A DNA stretch of 64,000 bases from a virus. Positions 9,311 to 13,343 of this stretch are shown here, one piece after another. The notes under the pieces were generated by a model. The model ran no database searches. It saw only the letters and a program-made list of their open reading frames with translations, and was not told where the DNA came from. The position numbers and the translations under genes were made by a program. Each line of letters opens with the position of its first letter. Within the stretch, counting starts at the first letter, position 1. Location of the stretch: IMG/VR virus record IMGVR_UViG_3300018412_000010; one strand, 5' to 3'.

Positions 9311-11014
9311 TTATGGCAAGTTTACAATATTCACCATATTCTTTATTCTGTTTATTGTTCTATCTTTCCCTAAGATTTGTTGAATTTCCCAAATGTCCGG
9401 TGATTGTGTTTTGCCGGTCAAGGCCAATCTAATCAAAGAACTTACGTGTCCAACATGACCCTTATATTGCTCTGGATTCTTCTTATGGTCTTTTGGTTTT
9501 ACCGCATATCCTAAGTTTGATGTGATATCCTTAACAGAATTAAACCATTCAGATTGGTCAGCATCATGATTATAGGATTCGATATATTCTTCAAGAATTT
9601 TTAAGGCATCATCCTTATCTATATTTTCTGGAACTTCGTCAATAATTTTAAGACATTCGTCAAAGAAATATTTGATGAAATCAAATATCTGGCTTGCACA
9701 GATTAAATCTTTTCTTGGTTTATCACCAGTTCTGCCCAAGTCAAGAATTTTACATACATAATCTCTACTTTTAACAAGCAACGCATATGCATCTTTGTTA
9801 AACTCTTGCGCCCAACTTACAAGGAAATCATATATCTCTTCTGCTGAAATTTTAACCATTACATTTTTCGAAACATCATCCAATTTATTCAAATCAAACA
9901 ATGCACCGGAATTACCCATCTTATCTACTGTAAATTGGAATTCATCAATAGATGCATCTGGATTTGCTATGCGCCATTCTTCAAAGTTTGAATTTAGAAT
10001 AGTCATAAGATATTCTCTTACAGCCGCAGGATGATAACCCAATTCCCTATAATAATCCAATGACAGTTCTGGGTCTTTTCTTTTGGAAAGCTTTCTTTTG
10101 TTGCCTTCTTCGTCAAATTTCATCAATTGTGCAGTATGGCAATAGGTCGGAAGTTCAAATCCAAGTTTTTCAAATAATTCAATATGAACCGGTAAAGTGG
10201 ATAACCATTCTGCACCTCTTACGACATGCGTGGTTCTCATTAGATGGTCGTCTACTGCGTGTGCAAAATGATAAGTCGGAATGCCATTGGTTTTTAATAT
10301 TACTATATCTTGGTCATTTTCTGGCATTGTTAATTTGCCACGAATACCATCTTCGATAGAAACCATTCTAATTTGTTCCTTTGGCAAATCTAAATTACCG
10401 CTTGATTTAAGACGAATTACATATGGTTCGCCAGACTTAACCCTTTTAGCATATTCTTCAAGCGAAAGATTTCTATTAACCGCCCACTTGCCATATATTC
10501 CAAAGTTTTCCTTGTTCTTTTCCTGCGTTTCATGAATTGCTTCAAGTTCTTCTGATTTTAAGAAGCATGGATATGCTAATCCTTTTAACACTAAATCCCT
10601 AACAAAACATTGATAGATTTCACCACGGTTAGATTGGTAGTAATCACCATAATCACCAACTTGACCATCCACTGTAACACCTTCATCGAAGTTCAGACCG
10701 AAATATTTCAAAGAGTTAATGATTACATCAACTGCACCCTCTACATAACGTTTATCATCCGTATCTTCAATTCTTAAATAGAATGTTCCACCGCTTTGGT
10801 GTGCTAGACGTTCATCTGCAAAAGCACCATATAAATTGCCCAAATGGATAAAACCGGTTGGTGAAGGTGCAAGTCTTGTAACCATCGCATTGTTATCTAA
10901 ATTTCTATTTGGGAATTGTGATTCGTAATAATCTGGTGTTCTGTCAATTGTCGGGAATAAGATTTTAGCTAATGCTTCATAATTCATATTTCTTGTTTCC
11001 TTTCTTGTTTTCAA
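9311..11014 (-). CDS. gltX: glutamyl-tRNA synthetase
   Basis: TRLAPSPTGFIHLGN (HIGH), LRIEDTD, PTYHFAHAVDD, HVVRGAEW, KLSKR (KMSKS); start may be ATG 10987. Confidence 0.95.
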   Translation of the reverse strand: MKTRKETRNMNYEALAKILFPTIDRTPDYYESQFPNRNLDNNAMVTRLAPSPTGFIHLGNLYGAFADERLAHQSGGTFYLRIEDTDDKRYVEGAVDVIINSLKYFGLNFDEGVTVDGQVGDYGDYYQSNRGEIYQCFVRDLVLKGLAYPCFLKSEELEAIHETQEKNKENFGIYGKWAVNRNLSLEEYAKRVKSGEPYVIRLKSSGNLDLPKEQIRMVSIEDGIRGKLTMPENDQDIVILKTNGIPTYHFAHAVDDHLMRTTHVVRGAEWLSTLPVHIELFEKLGFELPTYCHTAQLMKFDEEGNKRKLSKRKDPELSLDYYRELGYHPAAVREYLMTILNSNFEEWRIANPDASIDEFQFTVDKMGNSGALFDLNKLDDVSKNVMVKISAEEIYDFLVSWAQEFNKDAYALLVKSRDYVCKILDLGRTGDKPRKDLICASQIFDFIKYFFDECLKIIDEVPENIDKDDALKILEEYIESYNHDADQSEWFNSVKDITSNLGYAVKPKDHKKNPEQYKGHVGHVSSLIRLALTGKTQSPDIWEIQQILGKDRTINRIKNMVNIVNLP

Positions 11015-11024
11015 ACTTATCTTA

Positions 11025-11309
11025 TTATTTTAATATTTCTTTTAGCTGTTCCATCGTAACATTCAACTTTTCTCTGTCGTTAGACACAAGTTGCGTGTTT
11101 GCGTCCACCATCTTGTCAAGGATTCGTTTTAACTCTTCGGCTATAACAGCAATTCCGTTGACTTCCTTGATGTGTGCGGATTCTATTTCTAAATTAAAAA
11201 ATACTATCTGCAGTTCCTTGGCGTATTTAATTGTATCCGCGTTAACTTTCCGGATATCTGCCACAACTTCTTCAAGATGTTTGTAAATTTCATTTTGTTC
11301 AGCCATCAT
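11025..11309 (-). CDS. stand-alone methyl-accepting chemotaxis signalling-tip-like protein
   Basis: FNLEIESAHIKEVNGIAVIAEELKRI resembles the MCP consensus LNAAIEAARAGE.GRGFAVVAEEVRKL. Confidence 0.65.
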   Translation of the reverse strand: MMAEQNEIYKHLEEVVADIRKVNADTIKYAKELQIVFFNLEIESAHIKEVNGIAVIAEELKRILDKMVDANTQLVSNDREKLNVTMEQLKEILK

Positions 11310-11506
11310 AATCTACCTTTCTTACTGCTTTTTTTCATGTCGTTAAATTTAACTTTAGCCATATATCCCCATACAAACATACTAATAACGGAAACAATGA
11401 CACCAAGCGTATAATTTGATTGTGTGAACATTGATATTGCAAAGAATAATCCAAATATTGAATATGCAACACATAATACAAACATAACGCAATTTAATTT
11501 ATACAT
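11306..11506 (-). CDS. small two-TM membrane protein
   Basis: GGAGG SD before ATG 11506; two hydrophobic stretches. Confidence 0.6.
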   Translation of the reverse strand: MYKLNCVMFVLCVAYSIFGLFFAISMFTQSNYTLGVIVSVISMFVWGYMAKVKFNDMKKSSKKGRL

Positions 11507-11519
11507 TATATTACCTCCT

Positions 11520-11846
11520 TCAAAAATGAAATGTGATTGCTTTATCAGCAACTCTTCTTTCGCAATCTTCTTGTAATACAAACCAATATGGACAGTTTAT
11601 ATATGGAATATATGCCATTATCATTTCGCCATCATGCAATCTTGGAACCCTATAAATAACCGCACCACTATCAGTTAGAATTGAATATTTATCCCAATAT
11701 AAATTATAACATCTTTCGCTACAAAATGGCTTGTATCTTGAATCTACATTCGAACCCCAAAATATTTGTCTATATTGCGTTAATGATAAAAAGTCTGTTT
11801 CAGAATCAAATAATAAATTTTCACCACAATTATTACATTTAATCAT
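11520..11846 (-). CDS. hypothetical protein (CxxC...FCSxxC)
   Basis: ORF track; SD. Confidence 0.55.
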   Translation of the reverse strand: MIKCNNCGENLLFDSETDFLSLTQYRQIFWGSNVDSRYKPFCSERCYNLYWDKYSILTDSGAVIYRVPRLHDGEMIMAYIPYINCPYWFVLQEDCERRVADKAITFHF

Positions 11847-11857
11847 AACAATACCTC

Positions 11858-12139
11858 TTATATTAAAGATACTTCGTATCGGCTTGAAATTAATTTGAAG
11901 TCATAATTAGTCCACACGCATCCATCATACCAGATTTTATATAATGCATTTGTATCCATTAATATTTCTTTTTTAGCAAATCTTCCGGTAAATCTTATTT
12001 CATGTGGCTTATTGTCATCAGGGATGAGATATGAAAATTCAACAATGCCATTCCCTACACGATAGCAAACTTCGTAAGTCTGATTTAATTTGAACCTACC
12101 ACCTTCACTTCTAGTGCATTTTACTTTAAAAGCTATCAT
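11858..12139 (-). CDS. hypothetical protein
   Basis: ORF track; SD. Confidence 0.55.
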   Translation of the reverse strand: MIAFKVKCTRSEGGRFKLNQTYEVCYRVGNGIVEFSYLIPDDNKPHEIRFTGRFAKKEILMDTNALYKIWYDGCVWTNYDFKLISSRYEVSLI

Positions 12140-12147
12140 TACATCAC

Positions 12148-12378
12148 CTACTTAATAATATATAATATACCGCTATAATTACTCGTTGACCCGCCAAAAT
12201 GACTACGAATAAGCATAACTTCACTTGTAAGTAACTTAACGCTTAATTCACTGGTTTTGTATTTGAAATATCCAGGCATATTATACTTATGTATAAATAC
12301 CTCGCCCTCATTATCACCGTATTCTTTAATGGCGTCAGACAACAAAACAATTTTCTGCACTTCTTTTTTCTTAACCAT
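12148..12378 (-). CDS. hypothetical protein
   Basis: ORF track; GGAGG SD. Confidence 0.55.
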   Translation of the reverse strand: MVKKKEVQKIVLLSDAIKEYGDNEGEVFIHKYNMPGYFKYKTSELSVKLLTSEVMLIRSHFGGSTSNYSGILYIIK

Positions 12379-12632
12379 AACGTCCTCCTAAATTAAAAAA
12401 TCCCACATATGCACATATATATATTAGCATTATTGCGGGATTTTGTCAAGTTTATTTAAACAATATATTCCAAAAAATATACAGCTTTTGACGAAACGTT
12501 AAATCCTTTGTTGCTTGGTCAACCATTGTCATAGGCAGTATTAGGTTCTTATTTTTTTCGAATAATCTTAATTCCTTATAGAATTTTCTATACGCTTTAG
12601 GCTTAATCATAATAACACCTCTTTAATATAAT

Positions 12633-12658
12633 GCAAGCCACCTGTATTGGTGGCTTGC
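12633..12658 (-). terminator. GC-rich hairpin after the 12673-13077 gene
   Basis: GCAAGCCACC-6nt-GGTGGCTTGC. Confidence 0.55.
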
Positions 12659-12672
12659 CAGTAGTAATAAAA

Positions 12673-13077
12673 TTAAATGGATGCTAATCTTGTTGCGTTT
12701 TGAAGTAACTTAAGGTCGATTTCTGACTTAGCCTTCTTAAGTTCACTGATGTTTCTCTTAAGTTCTGTAGCCTCTACCGTCTCTACTTCCCATAACTTGA
12801 ATAGTTCCTTAGTGTTCTTTCTTGTCTCATACACGAACTTGATTCCTTCTGAAATCTGGTCTAAAACTGGAAGTGTCTGTGCGAATCCGTAAACTCTAAT
12901 AACTTCCTTCTTTCTGTCGTCGAAATACATATCCTGTGTCTCGTCAATTCGACCCCAAGTTCCTCTTTCATTAAAGATAGCCTTACGACCTGCTTCATCA
13001 CAAAGAATAACATAGAATCCGTGGTCTCTTGTTTCAACAACATTACCAACTGTAAGGTCTCTTAAATTCTTAATCAT
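12673..13077 (-). CDS. hypothetical protein
   Basis: Strong AAGGAG SD; downstream of the tRNA-Glu pair. Confidence 0.7.
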   Translation of the reverse strand: MIKNLRDLTVGNVVETRDHGFYVILCDEAGRKAIFNERGTWGRIDETQDMYFDDRKKEVIRVYGFAQTLPVLDQISEGIKFVYETRKNTKELFKLWEVETVEATELKRNISELKKAKSEIDLKLLQNATRLASI

Positions 13078-13141
13078 AAATTTTGTTCTCCTTTAATTCT
13101 TATAGTTTTAACATTAATTAATGAAGTGCTTTATTGCACTA

Positions 13142-13216
13142 TGGTGACTCTGCCTAGCTTACGTACTAGGTTTTCCAGATTGAGATTCTGACGTACTTAC
13201 GTTATACTACAGAGCC
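13142..13216 (-). tRNA. atypical tRNA-Glu(CUC), copy 1
   Basis: GGCUCUG/CAGAGUC-A-CCA acceptor; anticodon loop AUCUCAA; D-loop without GG; 8-nt T-loop UACGUAAG. Confidence 0.75.
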
Positions 13217-13219
13217 ATA

Positions 13220-13294
13220 TGGTGACCTCGCCTAGTTTTACGTGCTAGGTTCCTTCGATTGAGCGTCGAATGTACTTCGATATACTACGAGGCC
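13220..13294 (-). tRNA. atypical tRNA-Glu(CUC), copy 2
   Basis: GGCCUCG/CGAGGUC-A-CCA; anticodon loop CGCUCAA (G33); D-loop without GG; 9-nt T-loop CACGUAAAA. Confidence 0.75.
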
Positions 13295-13314
13295 ATGTTT
13301 TAACTGATATATTT

Positions 13315-13343
13315 ATTATATCAGTTATGTATTTAATTGTCAA
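13315..13343 (-). promoter_or_regulatory. consensus sigmaA promoter driving the tRNA-Glu pair
   Basis: TTGACA-N17-TATAAT with TG extension. Confidence 0.85.

What the first reader, a model, noticed from the sequence alone, without database searches (positions are those of the whole stretch)
9311..13343. Phage GluRS plus two tRNA-Glu(CUC) that keep synthetase identity but lost the universal elbow
Seen: both tRNAs (13142-13216 and 13220-13294) have a Firmicute tRNA-Glu-like acceptor (G1-C72, G2.U71, A73, CCA), U11-A24, U13.G22, A46 and a 4-nt variable loop. Both lack D-loop GG and TTC, have 8-9-nt T-loops, and have odd anticodon loops (A32 in one, G33 in the other). D and T loops both carry CG, which could form a substitute pairing. 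The stems of the two diverged copies covary, they have a consensus promoter, and gltX lies ~2 kb downstream. Known: staphylococcal non-proteinogenic tRNA-Gly lose GG/TTC, and Glu-tRNA is a donor for non-ribosomal chemistry (HemA, LanB-type dehydratases). Inference: this is an orthogonal GluRS/tRNA pair for non-ribosomal glutamylation, nuclease-resistant decoding or decoy function.
Basis: partly seen in the sequence, partly recalled or inferred. Interest (0 to 1): 0.8.

Follow-up and report, generated by a model that had tools for sequence, protein, structure and literature searches.

The report
Phage glutamate tRNAs with re-wired elbows
A large uncultured phage of anaerobic Clostridia carries two well-conserved glutamate-tRNA genes whose corner ("elbow") is built from unusual bases. 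They sit beside a small unknown gene and a host-derived glutamyl-tRNA synthetase, and they read a codon the phage hardly uses, so they are not ordinary codon-supply tRNAs.

Summary
Two tandem 75-nt genes (13142-13216 and 13220-13294, minus strand) fold as cloverleaves with anticodon CUC, encoded CCA and a perfect sigma-70 promoter. An intact GluRS lies 2.1 kb downstream.

Relatives from other metagenomes carry one to four homologous copies. Across seven copies, 15 of 21 stem pairs show compensatory changes. The invariant positions are the known GluRS recognition marks, and most also occur in host (Anaerovoracaceae) tRNA-Glu.

"Lost the elbow" is overstated. One D-loop G and a C at T-loop position 3 (probably G19:C56) are always kept, and the base before that G covaries with T-loop position 2.

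The "orthogonal pair" reading is not supported:
- The phage GluRS is an ordinary, once-acquired host-type enzyme.
- Two complete phages have such tRNAs but no GluRS.

Codon supply fails too: GAG is only 12% of the phage's Glu codons.

The steadier partner is a 134-aa unknown gene that follows a tRNA-Glu gene in six lineages. In one complete relative, the two Glu genes are the only tRNAs.

My best guess, unproven, is that these are chargeable tRNA-Glu variants shaped by a tRNA-centred conflict with the host. A non-decoding role is nearly as likely. This scan has noted other aberrant phage tRNA-Glu sets on other DNA.

The parts
13220..13294 (-). tRNA-Glu(CUC) variant B. D-loop AUCGAA, anticodon loop CGCUCAA (G33), T-loop CACGUAAAA (9 nt), encoded CCA.
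   Evidence: 99.2 bits to R1. Its ortholog by sequence is L005 8900-8974. Not reported by Rfam or ARAGORN.
13142..13216 (-). tRNA-Glu(CUC) variant A. D-loop AACGUAA, anticodon loop AUCUCAA (A32, U33), T-loop UACGUAAG (8 nt), encoded CCA.
   Evidence: (Rfam tRNA 40.6 bits). Its ortholog by sequence is L005 8818-8892, which has A33.
13315..13343 (-). Consensus sigma-70-type promoter (TTGACA, 17 nt, TATAAT, with TG) 20 nt upstream of variant B.
   Evidence: 12 of 12 matches. Relatives have equivalent promoters before their copies.
13112..13139 (-). Short hairpin directly after the CCA of variant A (13126-13139), then the palindrome CATTAATTAATG (13112-13123), ahead of the ribosome-binding site of the next gene.
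   Evidence: Read. The hairpin stem differs but still pairs in L005, L148 and L149/L150, while the palindrome is identical. Seen by eye, not tested statistically.
12673..13077 (-). 134-aa protein of unknown function, first gene after the tRNA pair. It belongs to a small phage family that follows a tRNA-Glu gene in six lineages.
   Evidence: No Pfam or PHROG hit. Ten homologs were found among 1.84 billion representatives. Model pLDDT 89.6: a small beta barrel plus a long C-terminal helix. No convincing fold match. Neighbourhoods.
12633..12658 (-). Terminator-like hairpin (10 pairs, 7 G-C) after the 134-aa gene.
9311..10987 (-). Glutamyl-tRNA synthetase, 558 aa from ATG (the ORF can be read from TTG at 11014). 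Host-derived.
   Evidence: Pfam. 66-71% identity to GluRS named as Aminipila or Lentihominibacter (Anaerovoracaceae) and to unnamed metagenome proteins. Phage copies are monophyletic, SH-aLRT 99. Catalytic motifs are intact and few phage-specific changes are seen.

Best explanation
The two genes encode real, strongly expressed glutamate-acceptor tRNAs (anticodon CUC). They belong to a phage-borne lineage in which the D-loop/T-loop corner has been re-wired, not destroyed, while every mark read by GluRS is kept.

Proposed mechanism (inferred):
- The host sigma-70 polymerase transcribes the pair early from a consensus promoter.
- The RNAs are cut out and charged with glutamate by the phage's host-type GluRS, and probably by the host enzyme too.
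- They supply a Glu-tRNA(CUC) that lacks the T54/Psi55/G18 signature and, in some copies, U33. This lets it escape a host factor that attacks or disables ordinary tRNA-Glu during infection.
- The phage GluRS and the adjacent 134-aa protein belong to the same tRNA-Glu module.

Shown here: the genes, their structure and covariation, conservation of the GluRS identity set, retention of a probable G19:C56 pair, the origin and intactness of the GluRS, and the misfit with codon use.

Inferred only: expression, charging, use on the ribosome, and the existence of a host attack.
For: 1. Selection on the cloverleaf. Seven copies from three phages are 98.6% paired, with 15 of 21 pairs changed on both sides. 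No slid register or shuffle control comes near this.

2. The invariant pairs are G1-C72, G2.U71, C3-G70, G10-C25, U11-A24 and U13.G22. C34-U35-C36-A37 and a 4-nt variable loop with A at its third place are also kept in every copy. These coincide with the E. coli GluRS identity set (Sekine et al. 1996, from memory). Tool-shown likely-host tRNA-Glu shares most of them.

3. The L-shape is probably kept.
- One D-loop G and a T-loop C plus purine are present in all copies.
- The base before that G covaries with T-loop position 2: GG with xUC in nearly all of ~150 cases, AG with xGC in 11 of 12, and CG with xAC in 4 of 5.

4. Signs of a tRNA conflict.
- Position 33 is non-U in a different paralog in each phage: G33 here and A33 in L005.
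- The phage's tRNA-Asn has C33 (alignment).
- A relative's tRNA-Glu(UUC) has C33.
- The phage encodes a T4-type RNA ligase 1 and a kinase-HD (Pnkp-like) protein, the classic answer to anticodon nucleases.
- Contigs encoding the identical 136-aa neighbour protein carry either a canonical UUC or a non-canonical CUC tRNA-Glu at the same spot.
- Phage tRNAs escaping nucleases through loop changes is a published idea (PMC10264068).

5. T-loop deviation is specific to viral tRNA-Glu. In pattern-limited IMG/VR samples, 24% of unique CUC and 7.5% of UUC genes lack TTC, against 1.8% of tRNA-Lys(UUU); Fisher p = 1.6e-6 for CUC against Lys.

6. None was found in 151 Anaerovoracaceae genomes searched.
Against: - GAG, the only codon a C34 tRNA reads, is 130 of 1063 Glu codons in the window (0.7% of all codons). 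It is about two-fold rarer than AAG or CAG would predict.
- L005 has four copies but only 6 GAG codons in 21.7 kb.
- No tRNA-Glu(UUC) was seen in the window, L005 or L148. A replacement for attacked tRNA-Glu would be expected to serve GAA first.
- Host UUC and CUC isoacceptors are identical outside position 34. An attack limited to CUC would therefore have to read C34.
- Non-U33 and A32/A38 loops are poor for decoding (general knowledge).
- No host nuclease is known, and no expression or charging data exist.
Confidence: 0.38

Rival explanations
1. Non-decoding glutamate acceptors. The RNAs are charged by GluRS but act off the normal decoding path. They could be a decoy or sponge for a tRNA-Glu- or GluRS-directed host toxin, or a glutamyl donor for an unidentified phage enzyme. 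They could also be a 'poison' tRNA that burdens GAG codons, which are common in host genes and rare in phage genes. The 134-aa neighbour would be the partner protein.
For: - The codon they read is scarce in the phage (12% of Glu codons here, 2% in L005) but 28% in host-family genes.
- Several copies sit under consensus promoters despite that low demand.
- Some copies have non-U33.
- Selection is concentrated on the GluRS marks.
- Linkage to the unknown 134-aa family recurs in six lineages, always with tRNA-Glu.
- A complete 108-kb relative has these two Glu genes as its only tRNA-model hits.
- Unchecked lead only: other windows of this scan reported phage tRNA-Glu derivatives that cannot decode, next to a phage GluRS.
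Against: - All copies keep an open 7-nt anticodon loop with CUC-A37 and a probable G19:C56 elbow pair, which a mere acceptor or decoy would not need.
- No Fem/GNAT-, LanB-, GluTR- or L/F-transferase-like gene was found among the 30 window ORFs scanned.
- L148 has a copy but no GAG depletion.
- There is no precedent for a poison tRNA.
Confidence: 0.32
2. Ordinary codon-supply tRNAs whose elbow drifted. They simply add a GAG reader, and the odd loops are neutral or tolerated variation.
For: - Phage tRNAs are common, and this phage's tRNA-Ile(UAU) fits its heavy ATA use: 740 ATA against 725 ATT.
- tRNA-Pyl and mitochondrial tRNAs decode without G18G19/T54Psi55 (general knowledge; PMC4810234).
Against: - GAG is under-used relative to host-family genes and to AAG/CAG.
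- At least one likely-host-family genome already has tRNA-Glu(CUC).
- The loops are conserved between phages whose GluRS and DUF2828 proteins are only ~70% identical. The T stem covaries around them, and D-loop and T-loop positions covary.
- The other tRNAs of these phages keep canonical loops.
Confidence: 0.15
3. An orthogonal GluRS/tRNA pair: the phage enzyme charges only the variant tRNAs, and the host enzyme cannot.
For: The two co-occur in all four phages of the GluRS-bearing clade.
Against: - Only 14 of 361 host-conserved columns are changed in all three full-length phage GluRS copies.
- The tRNAs keep the host-type acceptor, U11-A24 and anticodon marks.
- Complete phages G154 and G158 have variant tRNA-Glu(CUC) and no GluRS.
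Confidence: 0.07
4. Decaying tRNA pseudogenes.
For: Standard tRNA finders miss them.
Against: There is compensatory covariation in all four stems. The copies are identical in separate samples. They have a consensus promoter and an encoded CCA, and the loops are conserved across diverged phages.
Confidence: 0.02

Closest known systems
Phage tRNAs proposed to evade anticodon nucleases through anticodon-loop changes (T5-like and mycobacteriophage tRNAs; PMC10264068). Related cases: phage tRNAs that neutralise PARIS or retron effectors (PMC11464382, PMC11555353).
   Same: These are phage-encoded, early-expressed tRNAs that differ from the host isoacceptor at loop positions (here 32, 33 and 38). 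The phage also carries RNA-repair genes.
   Different: - Here the D-loop/T-loop corner is also re-wired.
- The isoacceptor serves a codon the phage avoids.
- Several paralogs exist.
- A GluRS and a conserved unknown protein are linked.
- No host nuclease is known.
tRNA-Pyl with PylRS
   Same: A tRNA lacking G18G19 and T54-Psi55-C56, with a small D-loop, that still works on the ribosome and comes with its own synthetase gene.
   Different: - PylRS/tRNA-Pyl is truly orthogonal and reads a stop codon.
- Here the enzyme is an ordinary GluRS, and identity is shared with the host tRNA-Glu.
- Co-occurrence is not obligatory.
Non-proteinogenic tRNA-Gly of Staphylococcus (donors for Fem transferases)
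   Same: Isoacceptors that lost the GG and T-Psi-C signatures while keeping synthetase identity.
   Different: A known partner transferase and a cell-wall role exist there. No such enzyme was found in the ORFs scanned here. EF-Tu affinity was not testable.
tRNA and aminoacyl-tRNA synthetase genes of huge phages (PMC7162821)
   Same: An uncultured large phage (contigs of 107 and 169 kb) with its own aaRS and tRNAs.
   Different: That work reports inventories. The variant elbow, the Glu-specific enrichment and the tRNA-Glu/134-aa gene module did not turn up in the literature I searched.
Metazoan mitochondrial tRNAs with reduced D/T-loop interaction (PMC4810234)
   Same: Working tRNAs with non-canonical or minimal elbows.
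   Different: Their ribosome and RNase P co-evolved with them. Here the RNAs must use a bacterial machinery that expects a canonical elbow.

Membership tests
tRNA (Rfam RF00005) | Cloverleaf with 7/4/5/5-bp stems, discriminator base and CCA | tested here: met
   Single-sequence folds and covariation over 7 copies.
tRNA (Rfam RF00005) | Score above the family's gathering cut-off | tested here: inconclusive
   Copy A scores 40.6 bits against 29. Copy B is not listed at E up to 10. ARAGORN finds neither.
tRNA (Rfam RF00005) | G18-G19 in the D-loop and T54-Psi55-C56 in the T-loop | tested here: not met
   D-loops are AACGUAA and AUCGAA; T-loops are UACGUAAG and CACGUAAAA. Only one G and the C are kept.
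Bacterial tRNA-Glu (GluRS identity set) | First two acceptor pairs, U11-A24, U13.G22 with A46, no residue 47, U35-C36-A37 | tested here: met
   The 1-72, 2-71, 11-24 and 13-22 pairs are invariant in 7 copies. The anticodon and 4-nt variable loop can be read. The acceptor marks, U11-A24 and A73 match host tRNA-Glu. The identity set itself is recalled from Sekine et al. 1996.
Bacterial tRNA-Glu (GluRS identity set) | Aminoacylation with glutamate | not testable with these tools
   Needs a charging assay.
Class I glutamyl-tRNA synthetase | Catalytic domain PF00749, anticodon-binding domain PF19269, and HIGH and KMSKS motifs | tested here: met
   (HLG at residue 48, KLSKR at 299). 66-71% identical to Anaerovoracaceae GluRS.
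Orthogonal synthetase/tRNA pair | Enzyme diverged at tRNA-reading sites, and obligatory co-occurrence with its tRNA | tested here: not met
   Only 14 of 361 conserved columns differ in all three full-length phage copies. Two complete phages have the variant tRNA but no GluRS.
Nuclease-evading phage tRNAs | Loop positions differ from the host isoacceptor | tested here: met
   The host loop is CU(U/C)UCAC. Phage copies have A, C or U at 32; U, G or A at 33; and A or G at 38.
Nuclease-evading phage tRNAs | A host tRNA nuclease that cuts the host tRNA but not the phage tRNA | not testable with these tools
   The host is not cultured. The only indirect support is the Rnl1 and Pnkp-like genes.
Non-ribosomal aminoacyl-tRNA donors (Fem-, LanB- or GluTR-type systems) | A partner enzyme that uses Glu-tRNA, encoded nearby | tested here: inconclusive
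   No such Pfam family was found among the 30 window ORFs scanned. ORFs beyond 43.6 kb and the rest of the genome were not scanned. The 134-aa neighbour has no recognisable fold.

The most novel reading that the evidence does not exclude
A phage-specific class of glutamate tRNAs with an alternative elbow (A18/G55 or C18/A55 in place of G18/Psi55, with G19:C56 kept) is charged by GluRS but acts outside ordinary decoding. It works together with a conserved 134-aa protein. It might serve as a decoy or Glu donor, or as a burden on GAG codons that phage genes avoid. It would be one face of a wider, undescribed use of tRNA-Glu derivatives by phages.
Probability: 0.28. Interest if true: 0.85.

Novelty: new variant of a known kind. 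Interest (0 to 1): 0.62.

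Why it matters
Phage tRNAs are usually explained by codon supply or, more recently, by escape from anticodon nucleases. Here a whole lineage of phage tRNA-Glu genes keeps synthetase identity while changing bases that are almost universal in tRNA. It does so by covariation, which suggests alternative ways to build the tRNA elbow.

In viral contigs, T-loop deviation is many times more frequent in tRNA-Glu than in a tRNA-Lys control. 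One complete phage carries tRNA-Glu genes and no other tRNA. Together with the linked GluRS and an unknown protein, this points to a glutamate-tRNA-specific battleground or function in phage infection that can be tested directly with charging, EF-Tu and decoding assays.

The variant elbows could also interest people who engineer tRNAs.

Tried and rejected
- DNA searches of the phage collection with the region and with the tRNA pair found no match.
- A viral-contig scan with GluRS peptides and one with the T-arm pattern found nothing.
It returned only chance matches and canonical tRNAs.
- Three fecal-phage records with a 45-52% identical GluRS had no tRNA or model hit within 8 kb.
- Sequencing runs: no RNA holder is listed for the tRNA pair. 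One possible RNA run covers only 13353-13490. Expression is therefore untested.
- Fold searches for the 134-aa protein gave Foldseek E >= 0.36 and VIA Z <= 4.6, generic small-barrel hits only. The ESM Atlas gave only viral hypotheticals.
- Complex prediction (GluRS with the 134-aa protein) was sent five times and the machine could not be reached. There is no result.
- Records behind L005, L006 and L148 could not be searched whole, so a tRNA-Glu(UUC) elsewhere in these phages is not excluded.
- The idea that GAG is recoded was rejected. The four GAG codons of the phage GluRS align with Glu or Asp in homologs.
- The idea that GAG/CTC depletion generally accompanies variant tRNA-Glu(CUC) was rejected. 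Sixteen other carriers have observed/expected 0.86-1.2.
- The idea that tRNA-Glu always adjoins the 134-aa family was rejected. It is absent next to the gene in three lineages.

Full report
**What is there.** On the minus strand, 13294-13220 (copy B) and 13216-13142 (copy A) are two 75-nt genes separated by 3 nt.
- Each folds alone into a cloverleaf: -19.9 and -21.4 kcal/mol, z -2.3 and -3.1.
- Both have a 7-bp acceptor stem starting G1-C72, G2.U71, C3-G70, discriminator A and encoded CCA.
- Both have a 4-bp D stem (GUAU/GUAC, so U11-A24 and U13.G22), a 5-bp anticodon stem, a 7-nt anticodon loop holding CUC-A, a 4-nt variable loop and a 5-bp T stem.
- The D-loops (AACGUAA, AUCGAA) have no GG. 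The T-loops (UACGUAAG, CACGUAAAA) have no UUC and are 8 and 9 nt long.
- Copy A has A32. Copy B has G33.
- ARAGORN finds only the four ordinary tRNAs at 14337-14663. Rfam's tRNA model scores copy A at 40.6 bits and does not report copy B.
- A 12/12 consensus promoter with TG lies at 13343-13315. A terminator-like hairpin at 12658-12633 follows the first downstream gene.

**The genome and host.** The window is a near-identical strain of a 107-kb JGI contig and a 169-kb ENA contig. Its GluRS differs from the JGI protein at one residue.
- DNA of this stretch is held by freshwater and wastewater metagenome runs.
- Genes around it are phage-like: DnaB, DnaG, split Pol III alpha, NAD ligase, HNH, anaerobic RNR.
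- The GluRS (9311-10987, 558 aa) has both Pfam domains. It is 66-71% identical to GluRS named as Aminipila or Lentihominibacter (Anaerovoracaceae) and to unnamed metagenome proteins, so the host is probably an anaerobic Clostridium of that family.

**Relatives.** Protein look-ups found three more phages with a ~70% identical GluRS.
- L005 is an 80.5-kb Logan contig that also has a 69% identical DUF2828 protein.
- L148 is a 76-kb Logan contig.
- L149 is a short ENA contig. Its cut gene is GluRS, 78% identical to the window's over 312 columns.
- A model built from the window pair finds four homologs in L005, one in L148 and one 5'-cut copy in L149. All have anticodon CUC and are missed by ARAGORN.
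- The D-arm and the T-loop core YACGUAA are the same in the window and in two L005 copies. The T stem around that loop differs compensatorily (CCUAG/CUAGG against CCGUC/GAUGG).
- Over seven full copies, 98.6% of cells pair and 15 of 21 pairs show changes on both sides. Shifted registers give 29-43% pairing, and no shuffle in 500 reaches any measure.
- The pairs that never vary are G1-C72, G2.U71, C3-G70, G10-C25, U11-A24 and U13.G22. CUC-A37 and the 4-nt variable loop with A at its third place are also kept in every copy.
- As far as I recall, these are the GluRS identity set (Sekine et al. 1996).
- Host-family tRNA-Glu(UUC) and (CUC), fetched from three Anaerovoracaceae genomes, share the acceptor marks, U11-A24, A73 and CCA. 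They have A13.A22 and canonical loops.
- These RNAs are therefore under selection as glutamate-acceptor tRNAs. They are not pseudogenes.

**The elbow is re-wired, not lost.**
- Every variant copy keeps exactly one G in the D-loop. It also keeps a C followed by a purine at T-loop positions 3-4 (positions 4-5 in the 9-nt loop UUGCAAUUC).
- In the canonical elbow, C56 pairs with residue 19 and residue 18 stacks between 57 and 58 (PMC4810234).
- I pooled my lineage with tRNA-Glu genes pulled from IMG/VR by a D-arm/anticodon pattern. The base before the conserved G then covaries with T-loop position 2: GG goes with xUC in nearly all of ~150 cases, AG with xGC in 11 of 12, and CG with xAC in 4 of 5.
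- The AG/xGC type recurs on clearly different tRNA backbones. The CG/xAC type is confined to the window/L005 lineage, so it counts as one event.
- This argues for alternative 18/55 contacts with G19:C56 retained.
In copy A the two loops could even form four pairs (ACGU with ACGU), but that does not hold across the family.

**Is the deviation special to tRNA-Glu?** The samples below are pattern-limited: each scan stopped at about 117 contigs, and lineages are not independent.

| Viral tRNA type | Unique genes | Lacking TTC in the T-loop |
|---|---|---|
| tRNA-Glu(CUC) | 70 | 17 (24%) |
| tRNA-Glu(UUC) | 93 | 7 (7.5%) |
| tRNA-Lys(UUU) | 114 | 2 (1.8%) |

- Fisher tests give p = 1.6e-6 for CUC against Lys and p = 0.0036 for CUC against UUC.
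- The other tRNAs of the window and of L005 are canonical.
- Among 151 Anaerovoracaceae genomes sampled, the family model hit only canonical tRNA-Glu and tRNA-Gly.

**The GluRS link.**
- The four phage GluRS form one clade (SH-aLRT 99) inside the Anaerovoracaceae radiation. This indicates one capture followed by vertical descent, on longer branches than host genes.
- HIGH and KLSKR motifs are intact. Only 14 of 361 columns conserved in 117 host-family proteins are changed in all three full-length phage copies, mostly conservatively.
- All four GluRS-bearing phages have variant CUC tRNAs.
- The reverse is not true. Two IMG/VR genomes rated 100% complete (G154, 107,954 bp with terminal repeats; G158, 119,619 bp) carry variant tRNA-Glu(CUC) and have no PF00749 hit, while all 14 control genomes did.
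- The enzyme therefore looks like an ordinary GluRS added to a pre-existing tRNA-Glu module. It does not look like half of an orthogonal pair.

**The steadier neighbour.**
- In the window, L005, L148 and L149 the variant tRNAs are followed by three elements in order: a short hairpin whose stem differs but still pairs, the identical palindrome CATTAATTAATG, and a 134-136-aa gene.
- Contigs L150 and L151 encode the identical 136-aa protein as L149 and share the same downstream sequence. At that spot they carry a canonical tRNA-Glu(UUC), where L149 has the variant CUC gene.
- Distant homologs of the protein (28-38% identity) are again preceded by a promoter-driven tRNA-Glu in L139-L141, G154 and L603/L604.
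- In L139-L141 and G154 the protein gene is also followed by a variant tRNA-Glu(CUC), with D-loop AAAGCA, AAAGUUA or AAAGUAA and T-loop UUGCAAUUC.
- In G154 these two Glu genes are the only tRNA-model hits in the whole genome.
- Three other lineages lack an adjacent tRNA.
- The protein has no family assignment. It models confidently (pLDDT 89.6) as a small beta barrel plus a long helix, and has no convincing structural relative.

**Codon use.**
- The window is 30.5% G+C. Of 1063 Glu codons, 130 (12%) are GAG, against 26% AAG and 24% CAG in the comparable pairs, and 28% GAG in host-family genes.
- L005, with four copies, has 6 GAG among 348 Glu codons. L148, with one copy, shows no depletion at 26%.
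- The GluRS gene, though captured from a host lineage, has 4 GAG among 44 Glu codons. These align with Glu or Asp in homologs, so GAG is not recoded.
- A C34 tRNA reads only GAG, so codon supply cannot explain two to four promoter-driven copies.

**An unexpected side result.**
- In G154, L139-L141 and L005 the trinucleotide GAG/CTC is the most under-represented of all (observed/expected 0.21-0.40). In G154 this holds in all three frames, and for CTC as well as GAG on the coding strand.
- None of 271 other viral loci falls below 0.5.
- In the window the value is 0.72, close to host loci at 0.75-0.95.
- The depletion is at motif level and specific to this lineage. It does not track variant tRNAs elsewhere. 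I leave it unexplained.

**Context of tRNA conflict.**
- The phage encodes a T4-type RNA ligase 1 (32150-33382) and a kinase-HD protein (30462-31361).
- Its tRNA-Asn has C33.
- A relative's tRNA-Glu(UUC) has C33.
- By sequence, copy A matches L005 8818-8892 and copy B matches L005 8900-8974. The non-U33 copy is thus a different paralog in each phage.
- These features fit published ideas on phage tRNAs escaping anticodon nucleases (PMC10264068, PMC11464382, PMC11555353).
- I found no paper describing variant-elbow phage tRNA-Glu or a tRNA-Glu/GluRS module.
- Earlier notes of this scan, unchecked by me, report other phages with aberrant tRNA-Glu derivatives beside a phage GluRS.

**Verdict.**
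- It is a conserved phage family of GluRS-type tRNA(CUC) genes with an alternative elbow, tied to an unknown small protein and, in one clade, to a captured GluRS.
- It is not an orthogonal pair, not codon supply and not decay.
- Whether the RNAs decode GAG while escaping a host attack (my slight preference, 0.38) or act outside decoding (0.32) cannot be settled without charging, EF-Tu and ribosome assays.

Noticed in passing
Relatives: G154 (L597-L602), L139-L141, L005; window whole: GAG/CTC is the most under-represented trinucleotide in these relatives (observed/expected 0.21-0.40). In G154 this holds in all reading frames, and for both GAG and CTC on the coding strand. 0 of 271 other viral loci fall below 0.5. 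The window is at 0.72. It is the codon/anticodon triplet of the variant tRNAs, but the cause is unknown.
   Followed up: partly
window 13353-13490 (minus), promoter 13777-13749: A third 12/12 consensus promoter lies upstream of a non-coding stretch. A contig from a possible RNA run matches 13353-13490 exactly, so this may be a small RNA.
   Followed up: no
window 14337-14663 (minus): A cluster of four ordinary tRNAs (Met, Tyr, Ile-UAU, Asn) sits behind another 12/12 promoter (14705-14677). tRNA-Asn has C33. tRNA-Ile(UAU) matches the phage's heavy use of ATA (740 ATA against 725 ATT).
   Followed up: partly
window 30462-33382 (minus): T4-type RNA ligase 1 (PF09511), an unassigned 271-aa protein, and a kinase (AAA_33) plus HD protein. 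This is a likely tRNA-repair set.
   Followed up: partly
window 15401-16876 (minus): DUF2828/DUF7788 protein (phrog_850, 'RNA-binding protein'). Its closest relatives are 64-69% identical, and some sit in phages that lack the tRNA-Glu module (L136-L138).
   Followed up: partly
L149 1-74 versus L150 130-204 and L151 1-57: Contigs encoding the identical 136-aa protein carry different tRNA-Glu genes at the same spot: a variant CUC in L149, and a canonical UUC in L150 and L151. This looks like a swap hot spot.
   Followed up: partly
L148 8716-8788: Another promoter-driven tRNA-shaped gene, about 100 nt upstream of the variant tRNA-Glu. Its anticodon arm is AU-rich and irregular (ARAGORN calls it 'Phe-AAA' with an offset). 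Identity unclear.
   Followed up: no
L140 2023-2390, L139 4379-4670: A promoter-driven ~330-nt non-coding stretch lies just upstream of the tRNA-Glu(UUC) gene in the distant relatives.
   Followed up: no
window whole: GTAC is the most avoided tetranucleotide (22 seen against 224 expected, counting both strands). GGCC, GATC and CGCG are also depleted. Each variant tRNA gene nevertheless holds a GTAC in its D-arm.
   Followed up: no
window 41470-42042 (minus): An AgrB-like membrane protein (PF04647, 4.2e-17) in a phage.
   Followed up: no
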